Positions 5,258 to 24,943 of a DNA stretch of 40,000 nt are shown in pieces. Where the stretch lies: positions 1 through 40,000 of the forward strand of contig CAYWZC010000003.1 of assembly GCA_964462745.1 (NCBI GenBank), in the 5' to 3' direction. The stretch comes from an uncultured Rhodanobacteraceae bacterium. GTDB taxonomy: Bacteria; Pseudomonadota; Gammaproteobacteria; Xanthomonadales; Rhodanobacteraceae. Under the pieces are notes generated by a model. That model saw only the letters and a program-made list of their open reading frames with translations, was not told the DNA's origin and did no database searches. The translations under genes were made by a program, and so were the position numbers. How positions within the stretch are numbered: the stretch's first letter is position 1; the number at the start of each line of letters is the position of its first letter.

Positions 5258-7039
5258 CTACCTCACGGCATAGAGCCGCGGCGCGTCGACCGCGGCGGGG
5301 GCTTCGGGGAGTGGCGGCAACTCGCCGCGCACCAGTTGCTCGACCAACGCCGGGAACGCGTCGGCCGGAATCGATTCGGGGTGCAGCGCGAGCACGCGCT
5401 CGCGCTCGGCCGGCGAGAGACCGGCACCGCGCCGCGCGCGCAGCTCGTAGGCGAGATCGAGGAGCGTCAGCGGACGCTCGTCCACATGCATGGGATTGGG
5501 CAGGTGGATCTCGGTGCCGCGGCGTTGCATGAACGCGGGCGTTGCCTCGGCCGCGGCGGCAACGTCCGCGAAGGGATCGATGCGACCGCCGAACGCGACG
5601 GCACCCTTGGCCTTCGCGGCGTTGGCGTCGAGCGTCTCTCGCTCGCCGTAGGCGAGTTCGTTCGCCGCCTTGCGGGCCTGGTCGACATCGGTATCGCGGG
5701 GCGCCGCGTAGCGCTCGCCGTAGACCGGCGCCTCGACGAAGAATCCGCCATCGTCGAGAGCGATCGGCTCGCATTCGTGGTAGCGGACGCTGCCGTCCTC
5801 GGCTTTGCCGAGGACAAACACCGCGGGCGCGCGATAGGGATTGACCACGACGCTGACCTTTTCGCCCGCGCGCACGTCCGGCACGTCGGCCACGGAATAG
5901 GTGGCGCTCTCGTAGCCACGCGGCGTGAAGCTGATCGTGAGATTGCCGGCGACCACGCGCGGCTGGGGCTTGGAGTGCATCAGCACCGCGCAGTCCTCGG
6001 CCGGTGGGCAAAGGCGCAACTGGTCCGGCCGGATCGTTTGCCACACCGCGTCGCGCGTATGCTTGTGGCGGCGATGGATCGCGCGGCCGTTGAAGGCGAG
6101 CAGCCACTGGTCGAGGTGGGCGTTGAGCTGCTCGATGCTATCGATGCGCGTGAAGCACAAGCGACCCTCGAACTTGCGCTCGATGATGTTGTGCATGCCC
6201 TCGACCTGACCCTTCGCTCGCGGGTTGCCCGGCACGTGGACCCAGTGCCGCACGCCGAGCGCGGTCAACAGGTTCTGGATGCCGTGGCTCATGTTCGCGG
6301 AGCCCGCGTCCCATACGAGCATCCAGGGCACGCCGTGCATGACGCGCCCGGGTTGGGGACGCATCGCCCACATCAGGAAGTCGAACAGCGATTCCTGGTC
6401 CTCGCCGGCCGCGTGGTAATAGCGGGCGATGACGTCGCCGCTGAAGTGATCGGTGAGCGCGTACCGGAGCACACGCTTGTTGACGATACGGGCGAGGTCG
6501 CGCGGCTTGCGCGCGTTGAACAACCGCTCGTCCATGACGGCGGCCTTGCCGTTCTTCAGGTAGTACAGCACGCAGATCGAGGCATCGAGCTGCCACACGT
6601 GATTCGGGTGCAGGCTGCGCATCGAGCTGTGCGGCGTCGCGCGTGCGAGCTGCGCCGGGTGGCAGCCTTCGCGGCGCATGATGCGCAGCATTGTGTCCGG
6701 GCTGACCCGCGTCTTGAGCTCGCCGTTGGCCAGCGCGATTTCGATCGCATCCGACAGCGGGAGGCGTTGCTTGCCGGTGGTACTCTGGCTGGAACGCATC
6801 AACGCCGCGACCGCCTCGACCTCGGCGCGCGACACGCGCGAATCGCCGCGGTCGGCGCGCAGCTTGCGACCGCTGGACCAGCCGACCTTGCGCAGGCGCT
6901 GGTACAAGGTGCTGCGCGTGACGCCGAGCATCCGCATGCCACGCTGGACGATGGGTTCGCACGTGCCGTGCGCCGCGCCGCGCAGCTCGTCAGCGAGGCC
7001 CTGCAATAGCTCCATCTCGGCGAGCTCCCCCTGGTGCAC
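5258..7039 (-). CDS. Mu A-like DDE transposase (593 aa)
   Basis: N-terminal HTH (GVTRSTLYQRLRKVG). rve-type core with candidate catalytic residues in VWQLDAS, LVWDAGSAN and KGQVEGMH. Confidence 0.9.
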   Translation of the reverse strand: MHQGELAEMELLQGLADELRGAAHGTCEPIVQRGMRMLGVTRSTLYQRLRKVGWSSGRKLRADRGDSRVSRAEVEAVAALMRSSQSTTGKQRLPLSDAIEIALANGELKTRVSPDTMLRIMRREGCHPAQLARATPHSSMRSLHPNHVWQLDASICVLYYLKNGKAAVMDERLFNARKPRDLARIVNKRVLRYALTDHFSGDVIARYYHAAGEDQESLFDFLMWAMRPQPGRVMHGVPWMLVWDAGSANMSHGIQNLLTALGVRHWVHVPGNPRAKGQVEGMHNIIERKFEGRLCFTRIDSIEQLNAHLDQWLLAFNGRAIHRRHKHTRDAVWQTIRPDQLRLCPPAEDCAVLMHSKPQPRVVAGNLTISFTPRGYESATYSVADVPDVRAGEKVSVVVNPYRAPAVFVLGKAEDGSVRYHECEPIALDDGGFFVEAPVYGERYAAPRDTDVDQARKAANELAYGERETLDANAAKAKGAVAFGGRIDPFADVAAAAEATPAFMQRRGTEIHLPNPMHVDERPLTLLDLAYELRARRGAGLSPAERERVLALHPESIPADAFPALVEQLVRGELPPLPEAPAAVDAPRLYAVR

Positions 7040-11260: not shown

Positions 11261-12208
11261 ATGAGGGTAAGCTATTTCGGGTACTCCGTGCGACACATCG
11301 GCACGGGGGAGTACTGGCTCGTCGATCTTAGAGACTTCGTTTCCGGATTCGTTGCAGCCGACGAATCCGAAATCAAAAATGGGCTGACGTACAACGGTGA
11401 GCAGATCTTTCTTTTGCCGCACAAGCCGCCTGTCTACCTGTTTGTTCAAGCACGAGACCACGAGATCATCAAGGCCATCCGGAAGCGGGAGATGTCCGTT
11501 GAGGACATCCATGCAGCGCTCAATGGTGCGTCCGTTGGCTTCGCGTCTTACGTGCTGATGGGAGAGCATTGGTTCGGTATCGGGTGTCGGGTGCTGTCGC
11601 CGCGCGTGAATGCCTTCGCGGCGTTTGTTCAGGACGTGTTTCAGGCGTTGCGCGTTCCCTATCAGTTCTCAGTTCAAGCGCTCACCGAGCAGATTCCGAA
11701 ATCGCACGTTCAGAAGCTGTACCAGGTCAACTCAGTGTCGATCGGAATGGAGATCGAGAATGGTTTGGCTCGGCACATCTACAACCTGTTGACCGGGGGA
11801 TCCGACGCAGGGTTGGCCGACGTGGCGAACATGGAGGTGACAATACGCCGTCGGCGAAAGGGAAACCACAGCATCAAGGACTCAGCTCAGGCGATTGTGA
11901 ACTCCGTGCCTGATGAAGGACTCGAATCGTTGGAGGCGAAGGCCAAGAAGGAGTTGAGTGAGGGCGTGACAGACGTTTACATCGTCGGGCAGGGTGGCCT
12001 CCGTGACTTCGTGCCGGGAGATTCGGAGGCCCACATCGCCGAGCAGATGCAAGAACGAGCGGCTGGCAACTCGGTACTGCGGGACAAGCTGGGGGAGATC
12101 AGGGGTGATGAAAACTTCAACACAGCGGTGGCTCCTCGTGAGCTTGGTCTCGATTGGGAATCTGCCATCGCTCGTTACGTACGCCCTGCTGCTGCGAGGA
12201 GAAGGTAG
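11261..12208 (+). CDS. rexA: RexA-like protein (315 aa)
   Basis: By-eye colinear similarity to lambda RexA as remembered: MSVEDIHAAL vs ASVEDIKNSL; VGFASYVLMGEHWFGIG vs LGFPSFLFVEGDTIGFA; EAHIAEQM vs AEIAEEM. SD AGGGGAG upstream. Lower-GC region. Confidence 0.65.
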   Translation: MRVSYFGYSVRHIGTGEYWLVDLRDFVSGFVAADESEIKNGLTYNGEQIFLLPHKPPVYLFVQARDHEIIKAIRKREMSVEDIHAALNGASVGFASYVLMGEHWFGIGCRVLSPRVNAFAAFVQDVFQALRVPYQFSVQALTEQIPKSHVQKLYQVNSVSIGMEIENGLARHIYNLLTGGSDAGLADVANMEVTIRRRRKGNHSIKDSAQAIVNSVPDEGLESLEAKAKKELSEGVTDVYIVGQGGLRDFVPGDSEAHIAEQMQERAAGNSVLRDKLGEIRGDENFNTAVAPRELGLDWESAIARYVRPAAARRR

Positions 12209-12590
12209 CGTTCTCTTGGGGACGCTCGGTGATCAGGTGGAGGCCTTTGCCACGACCGCAGCGAGCTTCTCCTTCTCGATGCTCGGCTTTCTCGTGGCTG
12301 CGATGGCGCTGATCAGCGTACTCTCTCAGACACGGGCATTTCGGACGTATCGGCAGCGCGGCTACCTGACTGTCTTCCTGTGGGGCTCCGCGATAGCCAT
12401 GTTGGAGCTGACGCTGGCGTTTCTTGCATCCCTGCGGTTGTTTTTCGCGCCCGTGACGGAATCGAAGCTTGCGTGCGCGGTTGTCGCCCTTGCAGCGGCC
12501 ATTGGGATGGTCGTCATGGTATTGATGCCGGTCATCGGCATGCAGGTCCGTGCGGCGAAAGAGGGCCGCGCCATCAGTAGCACCCGCTAA
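12108..12590 (+). CDS. rexB: RexB-like four-TM membrane protein (160 aa)
   Basis: Internal ATG 12108 of tracked ORF 11994-12590. Four hydrophobic helices. SQTRAFRTYRQRGYLTVFLWGSAIAMLELT resembles lambda RexB GSRTRRLAKIREYGYMTSVVIVYALSFVELG as remembered. Overlaps the RexA-like ORF by 101 nt. Confidence 0.65.
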   Translation: MKTSTQRWLLVSLVSIGNLPSLVTYALLLRGEGSVLLGTLGDQVEAFATTAASFSFSMLGFLVAAMALISVLSQTRAFRTYRQRGYLTVFLWGSAIAMLELTLAFLASLRLFFAPVTESKLACAVVALAAAIGMVVMVLMPVIGMQVRAAKEGRAISSTR

Positions 12591-12606: not shown

Positions 12607-12630
12607 CCATGCCGCAGCCTCGCGGCATGG
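12607..12630 (+). promoter_or_regulatory. Perfect 9-bp stem-loop enclosing both candidate holin start codons
   Basis: CCATGCCGC (12607-12615), loop AGCCTC, GCGGCATGG (12622-12630). ATG 12609 lies in the 5' arm and ATG 12627 in the 3' arm. Confidence 0.5.
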
Positions 12631-12998
12631 ACATTCGATCGCTGCTCCGTTCCTTCCGCGTACGCGCCGGGCTCTGGCTGAGCGGCGCGCTCCTGCTGCT
12701 CTCGCACCTGCGCGATCTCGGTCGCGTCGGCGCGCTGCTCGTCGTCGGCCTGGTCACGCTCTGGCTGATCGCGGTGCCGAACCCGCTGGTCGAGGCGACC
12801 AACCCGGTCAAGGTCGGGCTGCTCGCGTGGCTGGTGTGCAAGGAGTCGGTGCTCGCGTACCTCGGGTACTGGATCGACCGGTTGCTGCATCCGCGATCGC
12901 GGCCCGGCAACTTGCGCGACATCGAGCGCATGGCGGCGGAGAAGCGGCGCGCGTTCATCGTGTGTGCGGCCATGATCGCGGGCGGGCTGTTCCAATGA
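12609..12998 (+). CDS. Putative holin, multi-TM membrane protein (129 aa; alternative start 12627)
   Basis: Several hydrophobic helices (LWLSGALLLLSHL, VGALLVVGLVTLWLIAV, and others). Directly upstream of the endolysin and overlapping it by ATGA. Confidence 0.5.
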   Translation: MPQPRGMDIRSLLRSFRVRAGLWLSGALLLLSHLRDLGRVGALLVVGLVTLWLIAVPNPLVEATNPVKVGLLAWLVCKESVLAYLGYWIDRLLHPRSRPGNLRDIERMAAEKRRAFIVCAAMIAGGLFQ

Positions 12999-19807: not shown

Positions 19808-21169
19808 GTGGCGGGCCTCTCGCGCCTCCAGCGCGACACGATCCGGGAGATCCTGCGCCAGTTGCGCGCGGCGCGATCGCGCATCCTGGCCGCGATCGTC
19901 GATGCGCCGAACGATGCGGCGTGGGGACGCCTCGCTTGGCAGCGCGCCGAGATCACGCGCGCGATCCGCGCATTCCAGCAAGTCGCGACCGCGACGACAG
20001 TCGAGGCCGCGCGCAAGGCGTTCGAGGAGGGTATCGCCAGCATCGAGCGGCCGTTCGCGAACGCCGGCGTCGCGCTGCCGCCGCTTGCGCCGCGCATCGA
20101 CCATCGCGTGCTGCTCGCGATGGAGGATTTCCTGACGGATCGGATCTCCGACATCAGCACCGCCGCGGTCAACAAGATCAACACCGCGCTGGCCCAGCAC
20201 ATCCTCGGCGTCGATTCGATGGCCGACACGATCACGAACATCCAGCGCATCCTGGGCGGCGAGACGCGCCGGCGTGCGATGACGATCGCCTACACCGAGG
20301 TCGGCCGCGCGATGGCCAGCGCGCAATACCAAGCGATGCTCGCGCAGGCGCGCTACGTGCCCGGCCTCAAGAAGCGGTGGCGCCACAGCGCCAAGCTGCA
20401 CCCGCGGCCGAGCCACGTCGCCGCCGCGCACGACGAGCCTATCCCGGTGGCCGAGCCTTTCCGCATCGTCAGCGACAAGACCGGCGAGGTCGAGCTGCTG
20501 CGTTTCCCTCGTGACCCGCTGGCCTCGATCGGCAACACGATCAACTGCGGCTGCTCGATGATCCCGGTGCTGCCGTCGGTCGACGAGTTGTTCGACGGCC
20601 CGATCGGGCCGATCGTCCCGGCCGGTACCGTGGTGCGCGATGGCGTGCCGGTTGCGGCGGACGGCGGTGCGCCTCCGGCCGTGCCGCCGCCTGCGCCGCC
20701 TGCGCCGCCAGGCGGCGGCGGGGATGAGCCGATCACGCCATCGAGCATCATCGAGAAACTGGCCGGCCTGGTCGCCGCCGCTGGCGATGCGCAGGGCCGT
20801 TGGCTTTTGCGCAGCCTGTGGACGAATCTCGACAGCTACGGGCAGCACGTAAATCGTCGCATATTGCGCGGCGACGTGGCCGATGCCGCCGAGTTGGCGC
20901 GCCGCACGTTCGAGGCGCTGGCTGCCGCTCGATTCGCGGAAATAGCCCTCCCGACCGCCACGCGCTACGCCGTGTCCGAGTTCCGGGTAACGCCGGACGG
21001 GTGGCTAGTGCTGTTGAATTCCGATGGGCGTATCATCACATCGTACCCGTACGAGCCGGGGCATCGTTCGTTCGCCGACTTCAATCAAGGCTATGGACAT
21101 CGTATCCAACTCCACGAACTCACCGCTGCGGATCGCGAACGCCTTGCGCGGCTATTCGCTGGACGCTGA
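19808..21169 (+). CDS. Mu F-like (SPP1 gp7 family) head morphogenesis protein with a Pro/Gly linker and an extra C-terminal domain (453 aa)
   Basis: Mu F-type core ending in NTINCGCSMIP. Linker APPAVPPPAPPAPPGGGG at aa ~286-305, followed by a ~150-aa domain. Confidence 0.8.
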   Translation: MAGLSRLQRDTIREILRQLRAARSRILAAIVDAPNDAAWGRLAWQRAEITRAIRAFQQVATATTVEAARKAFEEGIASIERPFANAGVALPPLAPRIDHRVLLAMEDFLTDRISDISTAAVNKINTALAQHILGVDSMADTITNIQRILGGETRRRAMTIAYTEVGRAMASAQYQAMLAQARYVPGLKKRWRHSAKLHPRPSHVAAAHDEPIPVAEPFRIVSDKTGEVELLRFPRDPLASIGNTINCGCSMIPVLPSVDELFDGPIGPIVPAGTVVRDGVPVAADGGAPPAVPPPAPPAPPGGGGDEPITPSSIIEKLAGLVAAAGDAQGRWLLRSLWTNLDSYGQHVNRRILRGDVADAAELARRTFEALAAARFAEIALPTATRYAVSEFRVTPDGWLVLLNSDGRIITSYPYEPGHRSFADFNQGYGHRIQLHELTAADRERLARLFAGR

Positions 21170-21404
21170 GTGCTGGTCGCCGGAGTACGGCGAGACCTCG
21201 CGCATGTTGGACGATCGGCGGGCCCTGCATGCCGCGCGCGGCGTGTTGACCGATGGGCAACGCGCCGAGTTGGCGCGTGCCGACGAGCGCGCCGCGGCAC
21301 TATATGCCGCGCATCGCAATGCGCCTGATCCGTACCTGGACGTGCGCGCACTGGCCGATGTCGTCGCGATCATCGAATCCGAGCGCGACGCGGCCGCTGC
21401 GTAA
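21093..21404 (+). CDS. Hypothetical small protein (103 aa; alternative start 21204), overlaps the Mu F-like 3' end
   Basis: Internal ATG of tracked ORF 21024-21404. Mostly G/C-ending codons. Followed by a perfect 8-bp hairpin, GTGTGCGA-aatc-TCGCACAC, at 21412-21431. Confidence 0.4.
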   Translation: MDIVSNSTNSPLRIANALRGYSLDAECWSPEYGETSRMLDDRRALHAARGVLTDGQRAELARADERAAALYAAHRNAPDPYLDVRALADVVAIIESERDAAAA

Positions 21405-21759
21405 CGGCCCCGTGTGCGAAATCTCGCACACGCACTCGCGGCAATCCCCCATCGTGCAGCGGCCGCGCCGTTGCGATACTGTTTGCGTCGCCCCGCAGCC
21501 ATCCGCGCCCGACACCGGCCTGAATGTGTCCCAAGCTGCGCGGGGCGACGCTACCAGCTATCCTCCGTTCACCCCCACGGAAGCAAGATCATGCCGAAGC
21601 CACCGGGCCGCGACAGCGACGGCCACAAGGAGCTGCACGAAAGGCCGTTACGCGAGAGCACAAGAACACCCTGCACGTCGCGCGACGACGTGCCCCCGGC
21701 GACGCGGGTGCAGCGCGTGGATCCACCGCCGCGCGCGCCGCCCGATCGAGGAGGTTCCG

Positions 21760-22263
21760 ATGACCGAAACAACTCTTGAGCGCGACTGGCGCGAGCTGGG
21801 ATTCGATCTGCGGTTGTGCAGCCACTACCACTTGGAGCGAAAGCGCTTCTTCGACTGGTGGAACCACGTTTCCGCATTCCTCGCTGTCCTGCTGGGCTCG
21901 GCGACGGCGGTCGCACTGCTTGCGACCAACCCGAAGGTCGCAATGGTGGTCGCCATCGCGGTGACGGTGATCCAGGGATTCAACCTGGTCATCGGATTTT
22001 CGCGGCAGGCGTGGACGCACGGGGACCTCTACCGCCAGTTCATCGATCTGGAAATCGACTGGATGAAGGCCGAGCCATCGGTCAAGGCGCTGAGCGATCT
22101 CGGTGCCGCGCGTCGCGCGCTGGAAAAGACCGAGCCGACACCGATGCCGTATCTCATTCGGCGCTGCCACATCGACATCATGCGCCGCGACGGCAATCCC
22201 AAGTCAGAGTGGCCAAGGCTCGGCTTCTGGCAACGAGCATTCGCAAACTACTTGTCCGGTTGA
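21760..22263 (+). CDS. Two-TM membrane protein, SLATT/DUF4231-like architecture (167 aa)
   Basis: ATG 21760 preceded by GAGGAGG. N-terminal helix HYHLERKRFFDWWN, TM hairpin VSAFLAVLLGSATAVALL / VAMVVAIAVTVIQGFNLVIGF, and a C-terminal helical region. Followed by a terminator. Confidence 0.5.
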   Translation: MTETTLERDWRELGFDLRLCSHYHLERKRFFDWWNHVSAFLAVLLGSATAVALLATNPKVAMVVAIAVTVIQGFNLVIGFSRQAWTHGDLYRQFIDLEIDWMKAEPSVKALSDLGAARRALEKTEPTPMPYLIRRCHIDIMRRDGNPKSEWPRLGFWQRAFANYLSG

Positions 22264-22269
22264 ACCCGA

Positions 22270-22291
22270 CCCCGCCGCCCGGCGGGGTTTT
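22270..22291 (+). terminator. Rho-independent terminator
   Basis: CCCCGCC (22270-22276), loop GCCC, GGCGGGG (22281-22287), then TTTT. Begins 7 nt after the stop of ORF 21760-22263. Confidence 0.65.
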
Positions 22292-22312
22292 CAGTAGCAC
22301 GCGCTAAAAGAC
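22291..22312 (+). repeat. 22-bp motif TCAGTAGCACGCGCTAAAAGAC (copy 2)
   Basis: 21/22 identical to 12574-12595. Lies between the terminator and the head-maturation genes. Confidence 0.7.
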
Positions 22313-22373
22313 TCCGCGCCCTGGCATTCGTACCTTCGGCTCCGATCGCACTTTCCCGCGACGGAGACCGCAA

Positions 22374-22640
22374 GTGTCCTCACAGAAGAATGCCGCAAGC
22401 AAGTCGGCCGAGCCGCCGGCCAATCCGCCCGCCAATCCGCCCGCGCCGCCGCCGGCCGATGACGAGTCGACGCCCGCCAAGCGCGGGCCGTCCAAGGCCG
22501 AGCAGCTCGGCCTCTCCCCGCTGAAGCCCGACGGCTACAAGCCGGTCGGCAAGGTGCGCGTGCTCGCCGAGGCCAAGCGCGACGGCGTGACCGTGCGCGT
22601 CGTGTCCGACGACCGCCGCGTGTGGAAGGAAGTCGCGTGA
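22374..22640 (+). CDS. Hypothetical Pro-rich small protein (88 aa, GTG start)
   Basis: Tracked ORF with a PPANPPANPPAPPPA repeat. GTGA overlap with the downstream gene. Confidence 0.4.
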   Translation: MSSQKNAASKSAEPPANPPANPPAPPPADDESTPAKRGPSKAEQLGLSPLKPDGYKPVGKVRVLAEAKRDGVTVRVVSDDRRVWKEVA

Positions 22641-24943
22641 AGCTGCGCGCGATTGCCGCCGCGATCGCGGCCACCGGCATCGTCGGCGAGGCTGCGTTGC
22701 GCGAGGCCGCGGCGACCGAGTTCAAGGATGTCGTCAGTATCGTCTCGGATGCGGTCGCCCAGGTGCGAGGGGTGCAGCGCTACGACGTCGATGTCCATGC
22801 CGTATTCCCGGATCGCGTCGTCGTGCGTGACGGTGGCCGCTACTTCGCCCATCCCTACACGATCAACGACGACAACCAGGTAACGGTTGGTTCGCCCGTG
22901 GAGGTGACGGTCGATTTCGAACCTGTGGGGGCACGGGTGGCAGAGGCCGCAGGCAACGTCTTCCTGGAAGCGCTGCCTGCGGCCAATGCTTCCGATGCGC
23001 CGCGCTACCTCGTGCGCGTGATCCGGTCGGGCACATCCCTCAACGGGGTGGATTACCCGCGTGCGGTGCTGCGCGAGGCGGTGCCGTTGTTCGACGGCGT
23101 GCGTGTGTTCGTCAAGAGCGACGCCGAGCACATCGCTGGCGCCGGGAAGGACGTGCGCCAGCTCGTCGGCCGGCTCTCCGAGGCGCGCTTCGTCGAGGCC
23201 GATGGCGGCGAAATCCATGCTGTGCTCGACGTCCTGGAATCGTCCGACATCGCGCCGAAGCTGCGCGAGGCCGTGCAACGCGGCATGACCGACCTGTTCG
23301 GCTTGTCGATCGACGCGCAGGGCGCCGCGAAAAAGAAAGGCAAGTTCCGCGAGGCGACGAAGTTGACCAAGGTCAACAGCGTCGACCTGATCATCGAGCC
23401 CGGCGCGGGCGGGCAAGTCATCCAGTTCGTTGAAGCAGTCCACCAGGAGTCCGACACCATGCTGCGCCAGCAGATGCTCAAGTTCATCGAGGCGCGCGAC
23501 GCGAAGCGCGCGCAGGCCCTCGCCGATGCGTCGGACGAGGACATCATGACCGCCTACCGCGAGGCCGTTGCGGCCGCCGCGGCATCGAACAACCCAGCGC
23601 GAGAGAGTGGCGAAGGCACCGTGGCGGGAGCGCCCGCCACGGTGACCGCCGCCGACGTCGATGCGCGGATCCGCATGGTCGAGGCACGCGCCGAGGCACG
23701 CGTCGCGATCGCCGCGAGCAAGCTCCCGGCGCCGACGCAGGACCGCCTGCTGCAGCGCTTCGCCGAGGCCGCGACGTTCACGGCCGAGGACGTGACCGCC
23801 GCGATCACCGCGGAGCGCGAATACATCGGCCGCATCGCCGAGGGGGCGCAGGTCACCGGGCTCGGCCACTTCGTCGAGGCCGGCCAGGACCAGTCCGAGA
23901 AGGTGCGCGAGCGGCTCGACGATTTCTTCGATCCGTCAAAGCCGGTCCGCAGCTTCCGCGAGGCGTACATCGACATCACGGGCGACCGCCACGTGACCGG
24001 CCGCTTCGCCGATTGCAACATCGCGCGCCTGCGCGAGGCCGCGGGCGCGGACTTCCGCGAGGCGGTCAGCGCCGCGACGTTCGGCGACATCCTCGGTGAC
24101 TCGATCACCCGCGCGATGATCCGCGACTACGGCGCGCTCGAAGCCTACGGCGACTGGCGCTTCCTGTGCGACGTGGTGCCGGTGTCGGACTTCCGCAAGC
24201 AGGAGCGTACGCGCATGGGCGGCTACGGCAACCTGCCGGACGTTGCCGAGAACGGCGCCTACACCGCGCTCAGCACGCCGACCGACGAGGCCGCGAGCTA
24301 TTCGGTGAGCAAGCGCGGCGGCACGGAGACGGTCTCGCTGGAGGCGATCGCGAACGACGATGTCGGCCTGTTGCGTCGCATCCCGATGTCGCTGGCCGTC
24401 GCGGCCGGGCGCACGTTGTACGAGTTCGTGTTCGATTTCCTCGCCGACAACTCGGCGATCTACGACACGAAGGCGCTGTGCCATGCGGACCACAGCAACC
24501 TCGGTTCCGCGGCGCTCGCCGATACCTCGTTCGCCGCGGCACGGCTCGCGATGAAGAAGCAGACGGAACTGTCGAGCGCGAAGCGCCTCGGCATCACGCT
24601 GCGGCACCTGATCATCCCGTCGGATCTGGAGGAGACCGCGTTCGACCTGTTCGTGCGCGACACCAACAACGACGAGACGTTCGTGCAGAGCCGCAAGCCG
24701 ACGGTTCACGTGGTCGATTACTGGACCGATGCGAACAACTGGTTTGCGTCCGCGGACAAGGCGCAGGTGCCGCTGATCGAAGTCGGCTTCTACGGTGGGC
24801 GCGAGGAGCCGGAGTTGTTCGTGCAGGATTCGCCGACGCAGGGATCGTTGTTCAGCAACGACCAGATCAAGTACAAGATCCGGCACATCTACAACGGCGC
24901 GGTGCGCGACTACCGCGGCTTCTACGGTGCGATCGTCACCTGA
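22637..24943 (+). CDS. Fusion of a putative prohead protease/scaffold region with an HK97-fold major capsid protein (768 aa, GTG start)
   Basis: The N-terminal ~260 aa resemble phage head protease/scaffold N-domains (VIRSGTSLNGVDYPRAVL...SDAEH). An Ala/Glu-rich helical middle follows. The C-terminal ~330 aa look capsid-like and end ...KYKIRHIYNGAVRDYRGFYGAIVT. No separate capsid gene is present. Confidence 0.65.
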   Translation: MKLRAIAAAIAATGIVGEAALREAAATEFKDVVSIVSDAVAQVRGVQRYDVDVHAVFPDRVVVRDGGRYFAHPYTINDDNQVTVGSPVEVTVDFEPVGARVAEAAGNVFLEALPAANASDAPRYLVRVIRSGTSLNGVDYPRAVLREAVPLFDGVRVFVKSDAEHIAGAGKDVRQLVGRLSEARFVEADGGEIHAVLDVLESSDIAPKLREAVQRGMTDLFGLSIDAQGAAKKKGKFREATKLTKVNSVDLIIEPGAGGQVIQFVEAVHQESDTMLRQQMLKFIEARDAKRAQALADASDEDIMTAYREAVAAAAASNNPARESGEGTVAGAPATVTAADVDARIRMVEARAEARVAIAASKLPAPTQDRLLQRFAEAATFTAEDVTAAITAEREYIGRIAEGAQVTGLGHFVEAGQDQSEKVRERLDDFFDPSKPVRSFREAYIDITGDRHVTGRFADCNIARLREAAGADFREAVSAATFGDILGDSITRAMIRDYGALEAYGDWRFLCDVVPVSDFRKQERTRMGGYGNLPDVAENGAYTALSTPTDEAASYSVSKRGGTETVSLEAIANDDVGLLRRIPMSLAVAAGRTLYEFVFDFLADNSAIYDTKALCHADHSNLGSAALADTSFAAARLAMKKQTELSSAKRLGITLRHLIIPSDLEETAFDLFVRDTNNDETFVQSRKPTVHVVDYWTDANNWFASADKAQVPLIEVGFYGGREEPELFVQDSPTQGSLFSNDQIKYKIRHIYNGAVRDYRGFYGAIVT

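What the first reader, a model, noticed from the sequence alone, without database searches (positions are those of the whole stretch)
21405..22293. Self-contained moron with a SLATT/DUF4231-like 2-TM protein at the head-module site where Pseudomonas Mu-like phages carry anti-CRISPR loci
A ~1 kb insert interrupts the otherwise tightly overlapping late operon, between the Mu F-like gene with its small downstream ORF and the protease/scaffold-capsid gene. Upstream, a perfect hairpin at 21412-31 is followed by 355 bp of apparently non-coding DNA. The insert then carries a strong-SD gene (21760-22263) and its own GC-stem/T-tract terminator (22270-91). The protein has an N-terminal amphipathic helix (HYHLERKRFFDWWN), a tight TM hairpin and a C-terminal helical region. 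This is the layout of SLATT/DUF4231 pore-type effector modules from conflict systems, here without a fused or adjacent nucleotide-signal-generating enzyme. In D3112/JBD-type Mu-like phages, the interval between the Mu G-like gene and the protease/scaffold gene is the known acr-aca insertion hotspot. This locus is therefore positionally equivalent to a known counter-defence/defence hotspot. A possible 62-aa Arg/Pro/Asp-rich ORF (21591-21779) overlaps the gene start and could be a partner or a leader peptide.
Basis: partly seen in the sequence, partly recalled or inferred. Interest (0 to 1): 0.65.

Follow-up and report, generated by a model that had tools for sequence, protein, structure and literature searches.

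The report
Phage two-gene SLATT-like membrane cassette
A Mu-like phage carries, at a variable spot among its head genes, a conserved pair of accessory genes: a tiny proline-rich protein and a two-pass membrane protein distantly related to the pore-forming "SLATT" effectors of bacterial immune systems; the pair is widespread in phages, has never been studied, and its function is unproven (a guess is that it kills infected cells or excludes rival phages).

Summary
The gene at 21760-22263 is real. It encodes a 167-aa helical protein with a tight two-TM hairpin. It belongs to a large uncharacterised family (PHROG 11791; 1,637 representative clusters) that includes BcepMu gp19.

SLATT similarity is real but remote. 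NCBIfam SLATT_4/SLATT_1 hit 60 and 43 of 97 members, all below curated cut-offs. The top structural matches are SLATT proteins. No nucleotide-signal enzyme is adjacent in any locus inspected.

Hotspot behaviour is confirmed. In 80 related phages the Mu F-to-capsid distance ranges from 341 to 4,849 bp and holds varied, partly defence-like cargo. The closest relatives have no cargo.

- The terminator at 22270-91 belongs to the phage backbone, not to the insert.
- Half of the "non-coding" 355 bp is a conserved partner gene (21591-21779, 62 aa).

A comparable hydrophilic small ORF abuts the gene start in 57 of 68 further phage loci, against 3% at random positions. In the BcepMu clade it is under purifying selection (pN/pS 0.25).

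The unit is therefore a two-gene cassette. It sits most often after the repressor and before the lysis genes, and sometimes at the head hotspot.

Function is inferred only: most likely a membrane-permeabilising exclusion or abortive-infection effector controlled by the small partner.

The parts
19808..21169 (+). Mu F-like head morphogenesis gene (left flank, backbone)
   Evidence: PF04233 E 1.2e-7 and phrog_2468 4e-33. Only the N-terminal ~255 aa is conserved in relatives.
21144..21404 (+). Small 86-aa backbone ORF after Mu F
   Evidence: Called in the metagenomic contigs. 50% identical to the syntenic 98-aa ORF of L094. No family hit.
21405..21590 (+). Non-coding leader containing the hairpin 21412-21431; partly backbone intergenic DNA
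   Evidence: Hairpin dG -15.7, z -3.1. 21405 to about 21490 shares motifs with the L015 intergenic region. No sigma-70-like promoter found. No Rfam match.
21591..21779 (+). Partner gene: a 62-aa hydrophilic, proline-rich small protein (motifs PLRES and RVQRVDPPP). It overlaps the next gene by 20 nt and contains that gene's SD.
   Evidence: Homologous small ORFs occur at the same place in L094, L098, BcepMu, phiE255, TC7, L092, L096, L068, L111 and L112. A hydrophilic small ORF is present in 57 of 68 further viral loci, against 3.1% at random positions. pN/pS is 0.25 in the BcepMu clade, against 1.1-1.2 in the other frames.
21760..22263 (+). SLATT-like 2-TM membrane protein gene (167 aa)
   Evidence: phrog_11791 1.8e-40. 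Family of 1,637 representatives. AF2 pLDDT 88. TM peaks at 37-55 and 60-78. NCBIfam SLATT_4 E 0.0024 for this protein; 60 of 97 family members hit SLATT_4. Top BFVD fold matches are SLATT proteins.
22270..22291 (+). Backbone operon-end terminator hairpin (not the insert's own)
   Evidence: dG -19.2, z -3.3. The same hairpin follows the small ORF in cargo-free L012, and a longer one is present in L094.
22289..22312 (+). Conserved palindromic backbone motif (TTTCAGTAGCACGCGCTAAAAGAC), a candidate regulatory site for the head operon
   Evidence: TTTTAGCGC(C/G)CGCTAAAAGA(C/T) is conserved in L012 and L015, and more weakly in L094. The function is inferred.
22374..22640 (+). Conserved 88-aa gene preceding the capsid gene (right flank, backbone)
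   Evidence: Its C-terminal part is conserved in L012-L018, L041 and L094.
22622..24943 (+). Fused protease/scaffold-major capsid gene (right flank, backbone)
   Evidence: PF25209 5e-39, phrog_29592 3e-212, phrog_4523.

Best explanation
The locus is a mobile, phage-borne two-gene accessory cassette.

Gene 1 (21591-21779) encodes a ~60-aa hydrophilic, proline-rich, probably disordered cytoplasmic protein. It has a conserved C-terminal motif: [VI]x[DN]T(L/F)xPPP in most relatives, RVQRVDPPP here.

Gene 2 (21760-22263) overlaps gene 1 by 20 nt, which suggests translational coupling. It encodes a divergent member of the SLATT superfamily. The protein has an N-terminal amphipathic helix carrying the near-invariant S-x2-Y-H-x2-R-x2-F motif, a tight two-TM hairpin, and a cytoplasmic helical C-terminal domain with a conserved E-x2-EP...C motif.

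In this phage the cassette was inserted at the end of the first late operon, just upstream of the backbone terminator, at the Mu F / capsid boundary. That boundary is a cargo hotspot in this lineage.

Inferred mechanism: like the other SLATT and 2TM effectors of CBASS, Pycsar, retron and DRT systems, the membrane protein oligomerises and permeabilises or depolarises the inner membrane. This arrests or kills the cell and so excludes or aborts a competing phage infection. The small partner holds it in check or triggers it, as a labile inhibitor or an adaptor/sensor, taking the place of the nucleotide second messenger used by canonical systems.

Shown: the genes, their conservation and coupling, the fold, the remote SLATT homology, the hotspot, and the mobility between genomic slots. 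Not shown: expression timing, toxicity, pore formation, and any defence phenotype.
For: Family and fold:
- phrog_11791 hit at 1.8e-40.
- 1,637 representatives, mostly 165-190 aa stand-alone proteins.
- AF2 pLDDT 88, all-helical with a TM hairpin.

SLATT link:
- NCBIfam SLATT_4 hits 60 of 97 members and SLATT_1 hits 43 of 97 (best 1.9e-8).
- PADLOC CBASS '2TM effector' PDLC00712 hits 35 of 97, RT-associated SLATT hits 4 of 97, and Pfam SLATT_1 hits 4 of 97.
- UniRef names member P0167 as SLATT.
- Foldseek against BFVD is dominated by SLATT-domain proteins (E 6e-4 to 1e-2, TM 0.6-0.7).

Partner gene:
- Present in every unfused locus inspected by hand except one degenerate case.
- A hydrophilic small ORF abuts the target start in 57 of 68 IMG/VR loci, and 55 carry the motif. 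At random positions the figures are 3.1% and 0.14%.
- pN/pS is 0.25.
- Some members carry a fused hydrophilic N-terminal extension instead, and P0114 has PPPPP just before the domain.

Accessory and mobile nature:
- Absent from the closest relatives L012 and L015.
- Present at the same site in L094 and L068.
- Elsewhere it lies after the repressor (BcepMu, phiE255, L112, TC7), before Mu I protease (L178, L180, L152), after a tape-measure gene (L092), next to IS1595 (L108/L110), and in a Rudaea chromosome beside truB (L098).

Other cargo at the same hotspot is partly defence-like: CapP-like M78 peptidase with an HTH protein, and an LmuB-like ATPase. This phage carries RexA and a RexB-like gene in the slot where BcepMu-type phages carry the cassette.
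Against: - There is no experimental or expression evidence of any kind.
- SLATT similarity is below every curated cut-off (17-30 bits against 41-55). It covers only the N-helix, the 2TM hairpin and the start of the next helix.
- No PDB analogue was found.
- In roughly 40 BcepMu-like phages the cassette sits just before the holin/endolysin genes and appears vertically inherited. That would also fit a lysis-related role.
- In L094 the cassette starts 37 bp after a late gene, and here no promoter was detected. Expression may therefore be late-lytic rather than lysogenic.
- The partner's role as inhibitor, sensor or leader is pure inference.
Confidence: 0.5

Rival explanations
1. The cassette is lysis-associated. 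The 2-TM protein would be a holin-like or antiholin-like lysis-timing factor expressed late, and the small cytoplasmic partner its regulator, as T4 RIII is to the holin T.
For: In roughly 40 of 78 viral loci (BcepMu-like transposable phages, a Klebsiella plasmid prophage, L096, L112) the cassette lies immediately upstream of holin, endolysin and spanin genes. In the window and in L094 it lies inside or at the end of a late operon with no detectable promoter of its own. An N-in/C-in two-TM topology resembles that of class II holins (own knowledge).
Against: Here, and in TC7, L092, L098, L108/L110, L178 and L180, the cassette is not next to lysis genes, and some of these contexts are not phages. 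These phages already encode holins. In BcepMu-type phages adjacency to lysis genes coincides with being downstream of the repressor, so position does not discriminate. The closest relatives L012 and L015 lack the cassette at the Mu F-to-capsid site; their other genome regions were not examined.
Confidence: 0.2
2. The small ORF is mainly a cis-acting translated leader rather than a protein partner. Its poly-proline run, 14-28 nt upstream of the downstream ATG, would pause ribosomes on the SD and start codon. Synthesis of the toxic membrane protein would then be tied to translation status or EF-P activity.
For: The longest Pro run (PPP to PPPPP; only PP in L096) ends 14-28 nt before the ATG in 10 of the 13 loci measured by hand. 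Of the others, L112 is at 41 nt, L111 has no Pro run, and L096's tabulated Pro run lies 71 nt upstream, although its C-terminal PP lies about 20 nt before the ATG. The SD of gene 2 lies inside the small ORF, and 8 of 13 overlap it by 11-23 nt. The rest of the peptide is poorly conserved. In the window's own clade constraint is weak (pN/pS 0.5-0.76, with synonymous sites near saturation).
Against: Non-proline residues of the motif ([VI]x[DN]T) are conserved as well, which argues for a peptide-level function. pN/pS is 0.25 in the BcepMu clade. Natural fusions place the same kind of hydrophilic or PPPPP segment at the protein's N-terminus. L111 lacks a Pro run altogether.
Confidence: 0.15
3. The protein is an orphan effector wired in trans. 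It would be activated by cyclic nucleotides made by a host or co-resident CBASS or Pycsar cyclase, or it would act as a decoy for such signals.
For: The best defence-database match is the CBASS 2TM effector model PDLC00712, hit by 35 of 97 members. No cyclase lies in cis in any locus examined.
Against: The hits are weak, and no nucleotide-binding domain (SAVED, CARF, cNMP) was detected. The conserved cis partner is the small protein, not an enzyme. The cassette occurs across very different hosts.
Confidence: 0.1
4. The protein is a virion structural or assembly protein of the head module.
For: Only its position among the head genes.
Against: It is absent from 77 of 80 relatives with the same capsid, including the closest ones. 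It occurs in other genomic slots and outside phages. It is an integral membrane protein.
Confidence: 0.03

Closest known systems
SLATT superfamily (Pfam SLATT_1-6 / DUF4231; NCBIfam NF033632 SLATT_4, NF033634 SLATT_1), the predicted pore-type 2TM effectors of CBASS, SLOG, TIR and RT (DRT) conflict systems
   Same: An N-terminal helix followed by a tight two-TM hairpin and a helical cytoplasmic tail. Recurrent sub-threshold profile hits run across the family. The best structural matches are SLATT-annotated proteins.
   Different: All scores are below curated cut-offs, and alignments stop at about residue 100. The family has its own conserved C-terminal domain (E-x2-EP...C) and its own N-helix motif (S-x2-YH-x2-R-x2-F). 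There is no fused or adjacent SMODS, SLOG, TIR or RT. Instead there is a conserved ~60-aa Pro-rich partner. The family is predominantly phage-borne.
BcepMu gp19 / phiE255 gp48-gp49 (PHROG 11791), annotated only as conserved hypothetical proteins
   Same: Same protein family (34-36% identity, full length). Same small upstream ORF overlapping the start by 20 nt. phiE255 gp48 is the only annotated example of that ORF.
   Different: A different genomic slot, after the cI-like repressor and before the lysis cassette. No function has been published that I could find.
Lambda RexAB and other prophage exclusion/abortive-infection modules with a membrane effector
   Same: Prophage-borne accessory genes. 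The position is interchangeable: this phage has RexA and a RexB-like gene where BcepMu-type phages have the cassette. The presumed outcome is membrane depolarisation.
   Different: No sequence or fold relationship. RexA is a 279-aa sensor (own knowledge), whereas the partner here is a 60-aa disordered peptide. The analogy is functional only and is untested.
acr-aca loci of Pseudomonas Mu-like phages (JBD30, D3112 group)
   Same: Variable cargo inserted at the equivalent boundary, between the Mu G homologue and the protease/scaffold gene (PMC3993853 Fig. 1 legend; RGP G, low GC, PMC4378225).
   Different: The cargo here is a membrane protein plus a small peptide, not soluble Acr proteins with an Aca HTH regulator. 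The phage lineage differs: it has a fused protease-capsid gene and no recognisable Mu G.

Membership tests
SLATT superfamily | Two closely spaced TM helices preceded by a cytoplasmic helix and followed by a helical tail | tested here: met
   The AF2 model shows helices H5-54, H58-78 and H80-103. Hydropathy peaks fall at 37-55 and 60-78.
SLATT superfamily | Profile match above the curated threshold to a SLATT or DUF4231 model | tested here: not met
   Pfam gave no SLATT or DUF4231 hit at E<=1 for the window protein. NCBIfam SLATT_4 scored 17.8 bits against a cut-off of 55. The ten members scanned individually scored 17-30 bits.
SLATT superfamily | Statistically supported remote homology (family-wide recurrent hits or fold similarity) | tested here: met
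   SLATT_4 hits 60 of 97 members, SLATT_1 43 of 97 (best 1.9e-8), and PADLOC 2TM effector 35 of 97. The top BFVD matches are SLATT proteins with probability 1.00. A direct profile-profile comparison against SLATT alignments could not be run.
SLATT superfamily | Fusion to, or operonic association with, SMODS, SLOG, TIR, RT or another signal-generating enzyme | tested here: not met
   None was found in the window or in any locus whose genes were inspected.
SLATT superfamily | Pore formation or membrane disruption on activation | not testable with these tools
   Needs toxicity and depolarisation assays.
Phage moron (autonomous accessory unit with its own promoter and terminator) | Present or absent between otherwise syntenic relatives | tested here: met
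   Absent from L012 and L015 (capsid 72% and 67% identical). Present in L094 and L068.
Phage moron (autonomous accessory unit with its own promoter and terminator) | Own terminator | tested here: not met
   The hairpin at 22270-91 and the palindrome after it are conserved in cargo-free L012, and the palindrome is also conserved in cargo-free L015, so they are backbone.
Phage moron (autonomous accessory unit with its own promoter and terminator) | Own promoter | tested here: inconclusive
   No sigma-70 consensus was found in 20500-23000. That scan is weak for a genome of 68% GC. L094 has only a 37-bp gap.
Phage moron (autonomous accessory unit with its own promoter and terminator) | Deviant base composition | tested here: met
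   The gene has GC 0.611 and GC3 0.79. The window has GC 0.678, and neighbouring genes have GC3 0.84-0.91. The deviation is modest.
Cargo hotspot at the Mu F(G) / protease-capsid boundary | Variable length and content between conserved flanking genes across relatives | tested here: met
   The distance ranges from 341 to 4,849 bp. Low-GC cargo includes HTH with M78 peptidase, an 880-aa SMC-like ATPase, membrane proteins, and another member of this family.
Type II toxin-antitoxin-like pair | A small upstream gene overlapping a downstream toxin gene | tested here: met
   The overlap is 20 nt. The arrangement is conserved.
Type II toxin-antitoxin-like pair | Antitoxin with a DNA-binding domain; demonstrated toxicity and neutralisation | tested here: not met
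   The small protein has no Pfam, PHROG or PADLOC hit and looks disordered. Toxicity cannot be tested here.

The most novel reading that the evidence does not exclude
The small-protein + SLATT-like pair may be a complete, self-sufficient phage-borne exclusion or abortive-infection system of a new type. A SLATT-fold pore would be gated not by a nucleotide second messenger but by a ~60-aa proline-rich peptide. That peptide's abundance or translation (a poly-Pro run placed over the effector's ribosome-binding site) would report on the state of the cell's translation or proteolysis machinery during infection.
Probability: 0.25. Interest if true: 0.75.

Novelty: new variant of a known kind. Interest (0 to 1): 0.55.

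Why it matters
SLATT and other 2TM effectors are among the commonest but least understood killing modules of bacterial immunity. They are normally studied as slaves of a cyclase, TIR or reverse transcriptase.

This family is large (more than 1,600 clusters at 50% identity) and mostly phage-borne. It always travels without such an enzyme but with a conserved tiny partner. If it is active, it offers a minimal two-component system for asking how a SLATT-fold protein is held inactive and how it is triggered.

It would also add a defence or exclusion function to model transposable phages (BcepMu, phiE255) and to Burkholderia, Pseudomonas and Klebsiella prophages.

The work further shows that the Mu F/G-to-head-gene boundary is a cargo hotspot in a second, distant Mu-like lineage. 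That boundary is already known as the anti-CRISPR site in Pseudomonas phages. Here it carries defence-like rather than anti-defence cargo.

Tried and rejected
- Megablast of the 5.2-kb region against GenBank phages found nothing.
- Foldseek against the PDB gave only non-specific long-helix matches (ESCRT-III, PspA; E>0.5). I reject an ESCRT/PspA relationship.
- The weak Rv2743c/PspM hits (E 0.04; 2 of 97 members) are treated as generic 2-TM noise.
- An Rfam scan of 21000-22700 found nothing near any threshold.
- The promoter scan found no sites.
- The candidate minus-strand ORF 21589-22170 was rejected on codon-position GC.
- The search for related loci failed with the 97-member alignment. With the 7-member alignment it gave one genome locus and no viral loci.
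- Searching the small-ORF profile against 5.8 billion proteins returned only the inputs and a few Burkholderia and Methylocucumis 'hypothetical proteins'.
- Searching the family profile returned no Pfam-annotated bridge sequences.
- Literature searches for SLATT with prophage, for BcepMu gp19, and for SLATT/DUF4231 defence found no description of this family.
- pN/pS in the window's own clade is uninformative because synonymous sites are near saturation.
Full report
**1. What is at the coordinates**

The window is a 68% GC Mu-like (transposable-type) phage known only from metagenome assemblies. Fifteen Logan contigs carry the identical gene.

The late region reads, in order:
- Mu gp27-like gene
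- terminase
- portal-like 486-aa gene
- Mu F-like gene, 19808-21169 (PF04233, phrog_2468)
- 86-aa ORF, 21144-21404
- the finding
- 88-aa gene, 22374-22640
- a 773-aa fused protease/scaffold-capsid gene (PF25209, phrog_29592)
- tail genes

The gene 21760-22263 has a GGAGG 5 nt upstream of its ATG. Its codon-position GC (0.60/0.45/0.79) is coding-like but lower than its neighbours' (GC3 0.84-0.91).

21412-31 has dG -15.7 and z -3.1. 22270-91 has dG -19.2 and z -3.3. Neither Rfam nor the sigma-70 scan gave anything in the region.

**2. The protein**

AlphaFold2, run with a 7-sequence alignment, gives a confident all-helical model (pLDDT 88, pTM 0.78). It has one long helix at 5-54, helices at 58-78 and 80-103, and three shorter C-terminal helices.

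Hydropathy shows two peaks, at 37-55 and 60-78, joined by TNPK. This is a tight TM hairpin with both termini on the same side.

The protein matches phrog_11791 (unknown function) over its full length at 1.8e-40. An exhaustive profile search finds 1,637 representative clusters at E<=1e-3 and 778 at E<=1e-10. Nearly all are 165-190 aa stand-alone proteins.

Across 97 members the near-invariant positions are S20, Y23, H24, R27 and F30 in the N-terminal helix, and E122, E125, P126, L132 and C136 in the C-terminal domain.

**3. Is it SLATT?**

No Pfam SLATT or DUF4231 hit appears for the window protein even at E<=1. The family as a whole points consistently to SLATT:
- NCBIfam SLATT_4 hits 60 of 97 members (best 1.9e-8) and SLATT_1 hits 43 of 97.
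- Pfam SLATT_1 hits 4 of 97 and DUF4231 hits 2 of 97.
- The PADLOC CBASS '2TM effector' model PDLC00712 hits 35 of 97, and RT-associated SLATT hits 4 of 97.
- The window protein itself scores E 0.0024 against both SLATT_4 and PDLC00712.
- UniRef labels one member (P0167) as a SLATT domain protein.
- Foldseek against predicted viral structures returns, as its best matches, proteins annotated as SLATT or 'SMODS and SLOG-associating 2TM effector'. These have E 6e-4 to 1e-2, probability 1.00, TM 0.6-0.7 and near full-length alignments.
- The PDB holds no analogue.

All profile scores (17-30 bits) lie below the curated cut-offs (41-55 bits). The aligned region ends around residue 100.

I conclude that this is a divergent, unrecognised branch of the SLATT superfamily with its own C-terminal domain. 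It is not a member of any curated SLATT family.

**4. The partner gene**

The 62-aa ORF 21591-21779 ends 20 nt inside the SLATT-like gene and contains that gene's SD.

Equivalent small ORFs of 52-69 aa, strongly hydrophilic and Pro-rich, sit at the same place in many loci:
- the syntenic relative L094
- a Rudaea chromosome (L098)
- BcepMu, where it is unannotated
- phiE255, where it is annotated as gp48
- Pseudomonas phage TC7, where it is hidden by a mis-called start
- L092, L096, L068, L111 and L112

They align weakly overall. They share a central P(L/T)R(E/D)S-like motif and a C-terminal motif, [VI]x[DN]T(L/F)xPPP. The window's clade has RVQRVDPPP, and another clade has (D/T)EPPPKRK.

In a further 68 IMG/VR loci that carry a family member, 57 have such an ORF abutting or overlapping the start, and 55 have the motif. 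These comprise 46 distinct sequences. At 2,096 random positions in the same loci the rates are 3.1% and 0.14%.

Among BcepMu-like phages the small ORF shows pN/pS of 0.25 in its own frame, against 1.1-1.2 in the other two frames. The membrane protein shows 0.08. In the window's own clade synonymous sites are near saturation, so the test is uninformative.

Some longer family members lack a separate ORF and instead carry a fused hydrophilic N-terminal extension. One of them (P0114) has a zinc ribbon followed by PPPPP just before the domain.

The functional unit is therefore a two-gene cassette. The small product most probably acts at the protein level on the cytoplasmic face of the membrane protein.

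There is one alternative. The longest Pro run (PPP to PPPPP) ends 14-28 nt before the downstream ATG in 10 of the 13 loci measured by hand. Of the other three:
- L112 is at 41 nt.
- L111 has no Pro run.
- L096 has only a PP run, tabulated at 71 nt, although its C-terminal PP lies about 20 nt before the ATG.

A role as a stalling leader therefore cannot be excluded.

**5. Insert boundaries and the 'own terminator'**

The closest relatives by capsid identity, L012 (72%) and L015 (67%), have Mu F, a 66-aa ORF, a small protein and the capsid gene, with no cargo.

In L012 the 66-aa ORF is followed directly by CCCCGC-tccg-GCGGGG-TTTTTCTTTT and then AGCGCCCGCTAAAAGAC. The window has CCCCGCC-gccc-GGCGGGG-TTTT and then AGTAGCACGCGCTAAAAGAC, placed after the SLATT-like gene. 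L015 and L094 carry the same palindromic motif.

The terminator and the palindrome are therefore backbone. They mark the end of the first late operon and, by inference, the regulatory region of the head operon. From my own knowledge, phage Mu starts a separate late transcript (P_I) at the G/I boundary, which would explain why this site tolerates insertions.

The first ~90 bp after 21404 also resemble the L015 intergenic region.

The cassette was thus inserted upstream of the operon-end terminator. It is probably transcribed at least by read-through. An own promoter in 21405-21590 is neither shown nor excluded. In L094 the cassette begins 37 bp after the preceding ORF.

L094 shares the flanking genes at 50% and 62% identity and the cassette at 55-63%. 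In this sub-lineage the cassette is therefore old and has been retained.

**6. Hotspot behaviour**

Among 80 IMG/VR loci with a related capsid gene (36-72% identity), the distance from the end of the conserved Mu F domain to the capsid start ranges from 341 to 4,849 bp.

The longer intervals carry low-GC cargo:
- Xre HTH with an M78 peptidase in L052, L088 and L059 (PADLOC capP 8e-15)
- an 880-aa SMC/ABC-type ATPase in L065, whose best PADLOC hits are mad3 and LmuB
- membrane proteins and unknowns in L047, L048 and L053
- another member of the present family, with its small ORF, in L068

The published anti-CRISPR region of Pseudomonas Mu-like phages lies between the Mu G homologue and the protease/scaffold gene (PMC3993853). 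It is a low-GC plasticity region (PMC4378225).

The positional analogy is sound. However, this phage has no recognisable Mu G gene, and the cargo seen here looks defence-like rather than anti-defence.

**7. Where else the cassette lives**

- In BcepMu, phiE255 and L112 it lies downstream of, and co-directional with, the cI-like repressor and immediately upstream of the lysis cassette. In roughly 40 of the 78 further viral loci, tblastn finds BcepMu-type flanking genes on one or both sides: the immunity HTH pair or repressor upstream, or lysis genes or terS downstream. A BcepMu-like prophage on a Klebsiella plasmid has a lytic transglycosylase gene just downstream.
- In TC7 it follows 'repressor protein C'.
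- In L178, L180 and L152 it lies directly upstream of a Mu I protease (PF10123, about 1e-90 for L178 and L180).
- In L092 it follows a tape-measure gene.
- In L108/L110 it sits beside an IS1595 transposase, with different flanks in the two loci.
- In L098 it is in a bacterial chromosome next to truB.
- The window phage itself carries RexA (3e-51) and a RexB-like gene (E 1.4e-3) exactly where BcepMu-type phages carry the cassette, just before the holin and SLT genes.

This pattern is that of an autonomous accessory module. It occupies operon ends and the immunity-adjacent slot, and it is interchangeable with a classical abortive-infection system.

**8. Mechanism, and how sure**

Firmly supported (about 0.85-0.9):
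- The locus is a conserved two-gene cassette.
- The membrane protein has a SLATT-like fold and origin.
- It has no cis-encoded signal generator.
- It is accessory cargo at a hotspot.

Inferred (about 0.5): the membrane protein permeabilises or depolarises the inner membrane as an exclusion or abortive-infection effector, and the small partner inhibits or triggers it.

The main rival (about 0.2) is a lysis-timing role, suggested by the frequent adjacency to holin and endolysin genes. Against this rival:
- Many loci are unlinked to lysis genes, and some are not phages.
- These phages have holins of their own.
- In BcepMu-type genomes 'before lysis' and 'after the repressor' are the same place.

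A structural role is effectively excluded, because 77 of 80 relatives lack the cassette and the protein is integral to the membrane.

**9. Novelty**

I found no description of this family or cassette in the literature. Databases call the proteins hypothetical.

It is a new variant of a known kind: a phage-borne, enzyme-less SLATT-like effector with a dedicated proline-rich micro-protein partner.

Noticed in passing
window 11261-12208 and 12216-12590: A RexA homologue (PF15969, E 3.3e-51) is followed by a 124-aa RexB-like protein (PF15968, E 0.0014, below cut-off). They sit directly upstream of a holin-like gene (12609-12998) and the SLT endolysin. This is the slot where BcepMu-type phages carry the small-ORF + SLATT-like cassette.
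   Followed up: partly
window 22289-22312; L012 5765-5785; L015 5728-5748; L094 about 6069-6090: A conserved palindromic motif, TTTTAGCGCGCGCTAAAAGA(C/T), lies just before the head-gene block; in the window, L012 and L094 it immediately follows the operon-end terminator. It may be a late-activator or promoter element of the head operon.
   Followed up: partly
L052 4055-4937; L088 3990-4938; L059 4504-5416 (minus strand): Relatives carry an Xre-HTH + M78 peptidase pair (CapH/CapP-like; PADLOC capP 8e-15) as cargo at the same Mu F-to-capsid hotspot, with no obvious adjacent effector.
   Followed up: partly
L065 2285-4927: An 880-aa SMC/ABC-type ATPase is cargo at the same hotspot. Its PADLOC hits are mad3 (4.5e-18) and LmuB (5.6e-13).
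   Followed up: no
L068 4721-4930 and 4934-5416: In this relative the small ORF and the SLATT-like gene are in the same reading frame, separated only by a stop codon and one further codon. Stop-codon read-through would therefore give a fusion like the naturally fused family members.
   Followed up: no
proteins P0087, P0157, P0158, P0128, P0166 and P0114: Family members of 250-264 aa carry an 80-90-aa hydrophilic low-complexity N-terminal extension instead of a separate small ORF. P0114 has an N-terminal zinc ribbon followed by PPPPP, and 3 of 97 members hit TIGR04402 'mobilome CxxCx(11)CxxC protein'.
   Followed up: partly
L192 (NZ_CP056223.1 3278-3544) and 37 other Klebsiella IncFIB plasmids: Only the C-terminal half of the family (residues 79-167, 42% identity) is present, as a ~100-aa 'hypothetical protein' near RepB. 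It may be a remnant or a stand-alone C-terminal domain.
   Followed up: no
window 19808-21169 compared with L012-L091: Only the first ~255 aa of the 453-aa Mu F-like protein are conserved among relatives. The Ala/Pro/Gly-rich C-terminal ~200 aa is lineage-specific.
   Followed up: no
L003 (Pseudomonas phage TC7) 5805-5963 and 5881-6504: The annotated TC7_041 start appears to be mis-called. A 52-aa Pro-rich small ORF in another frame ends at 5963, and the SLATT-like protein probably starts at 5965.
   Followed up: partly
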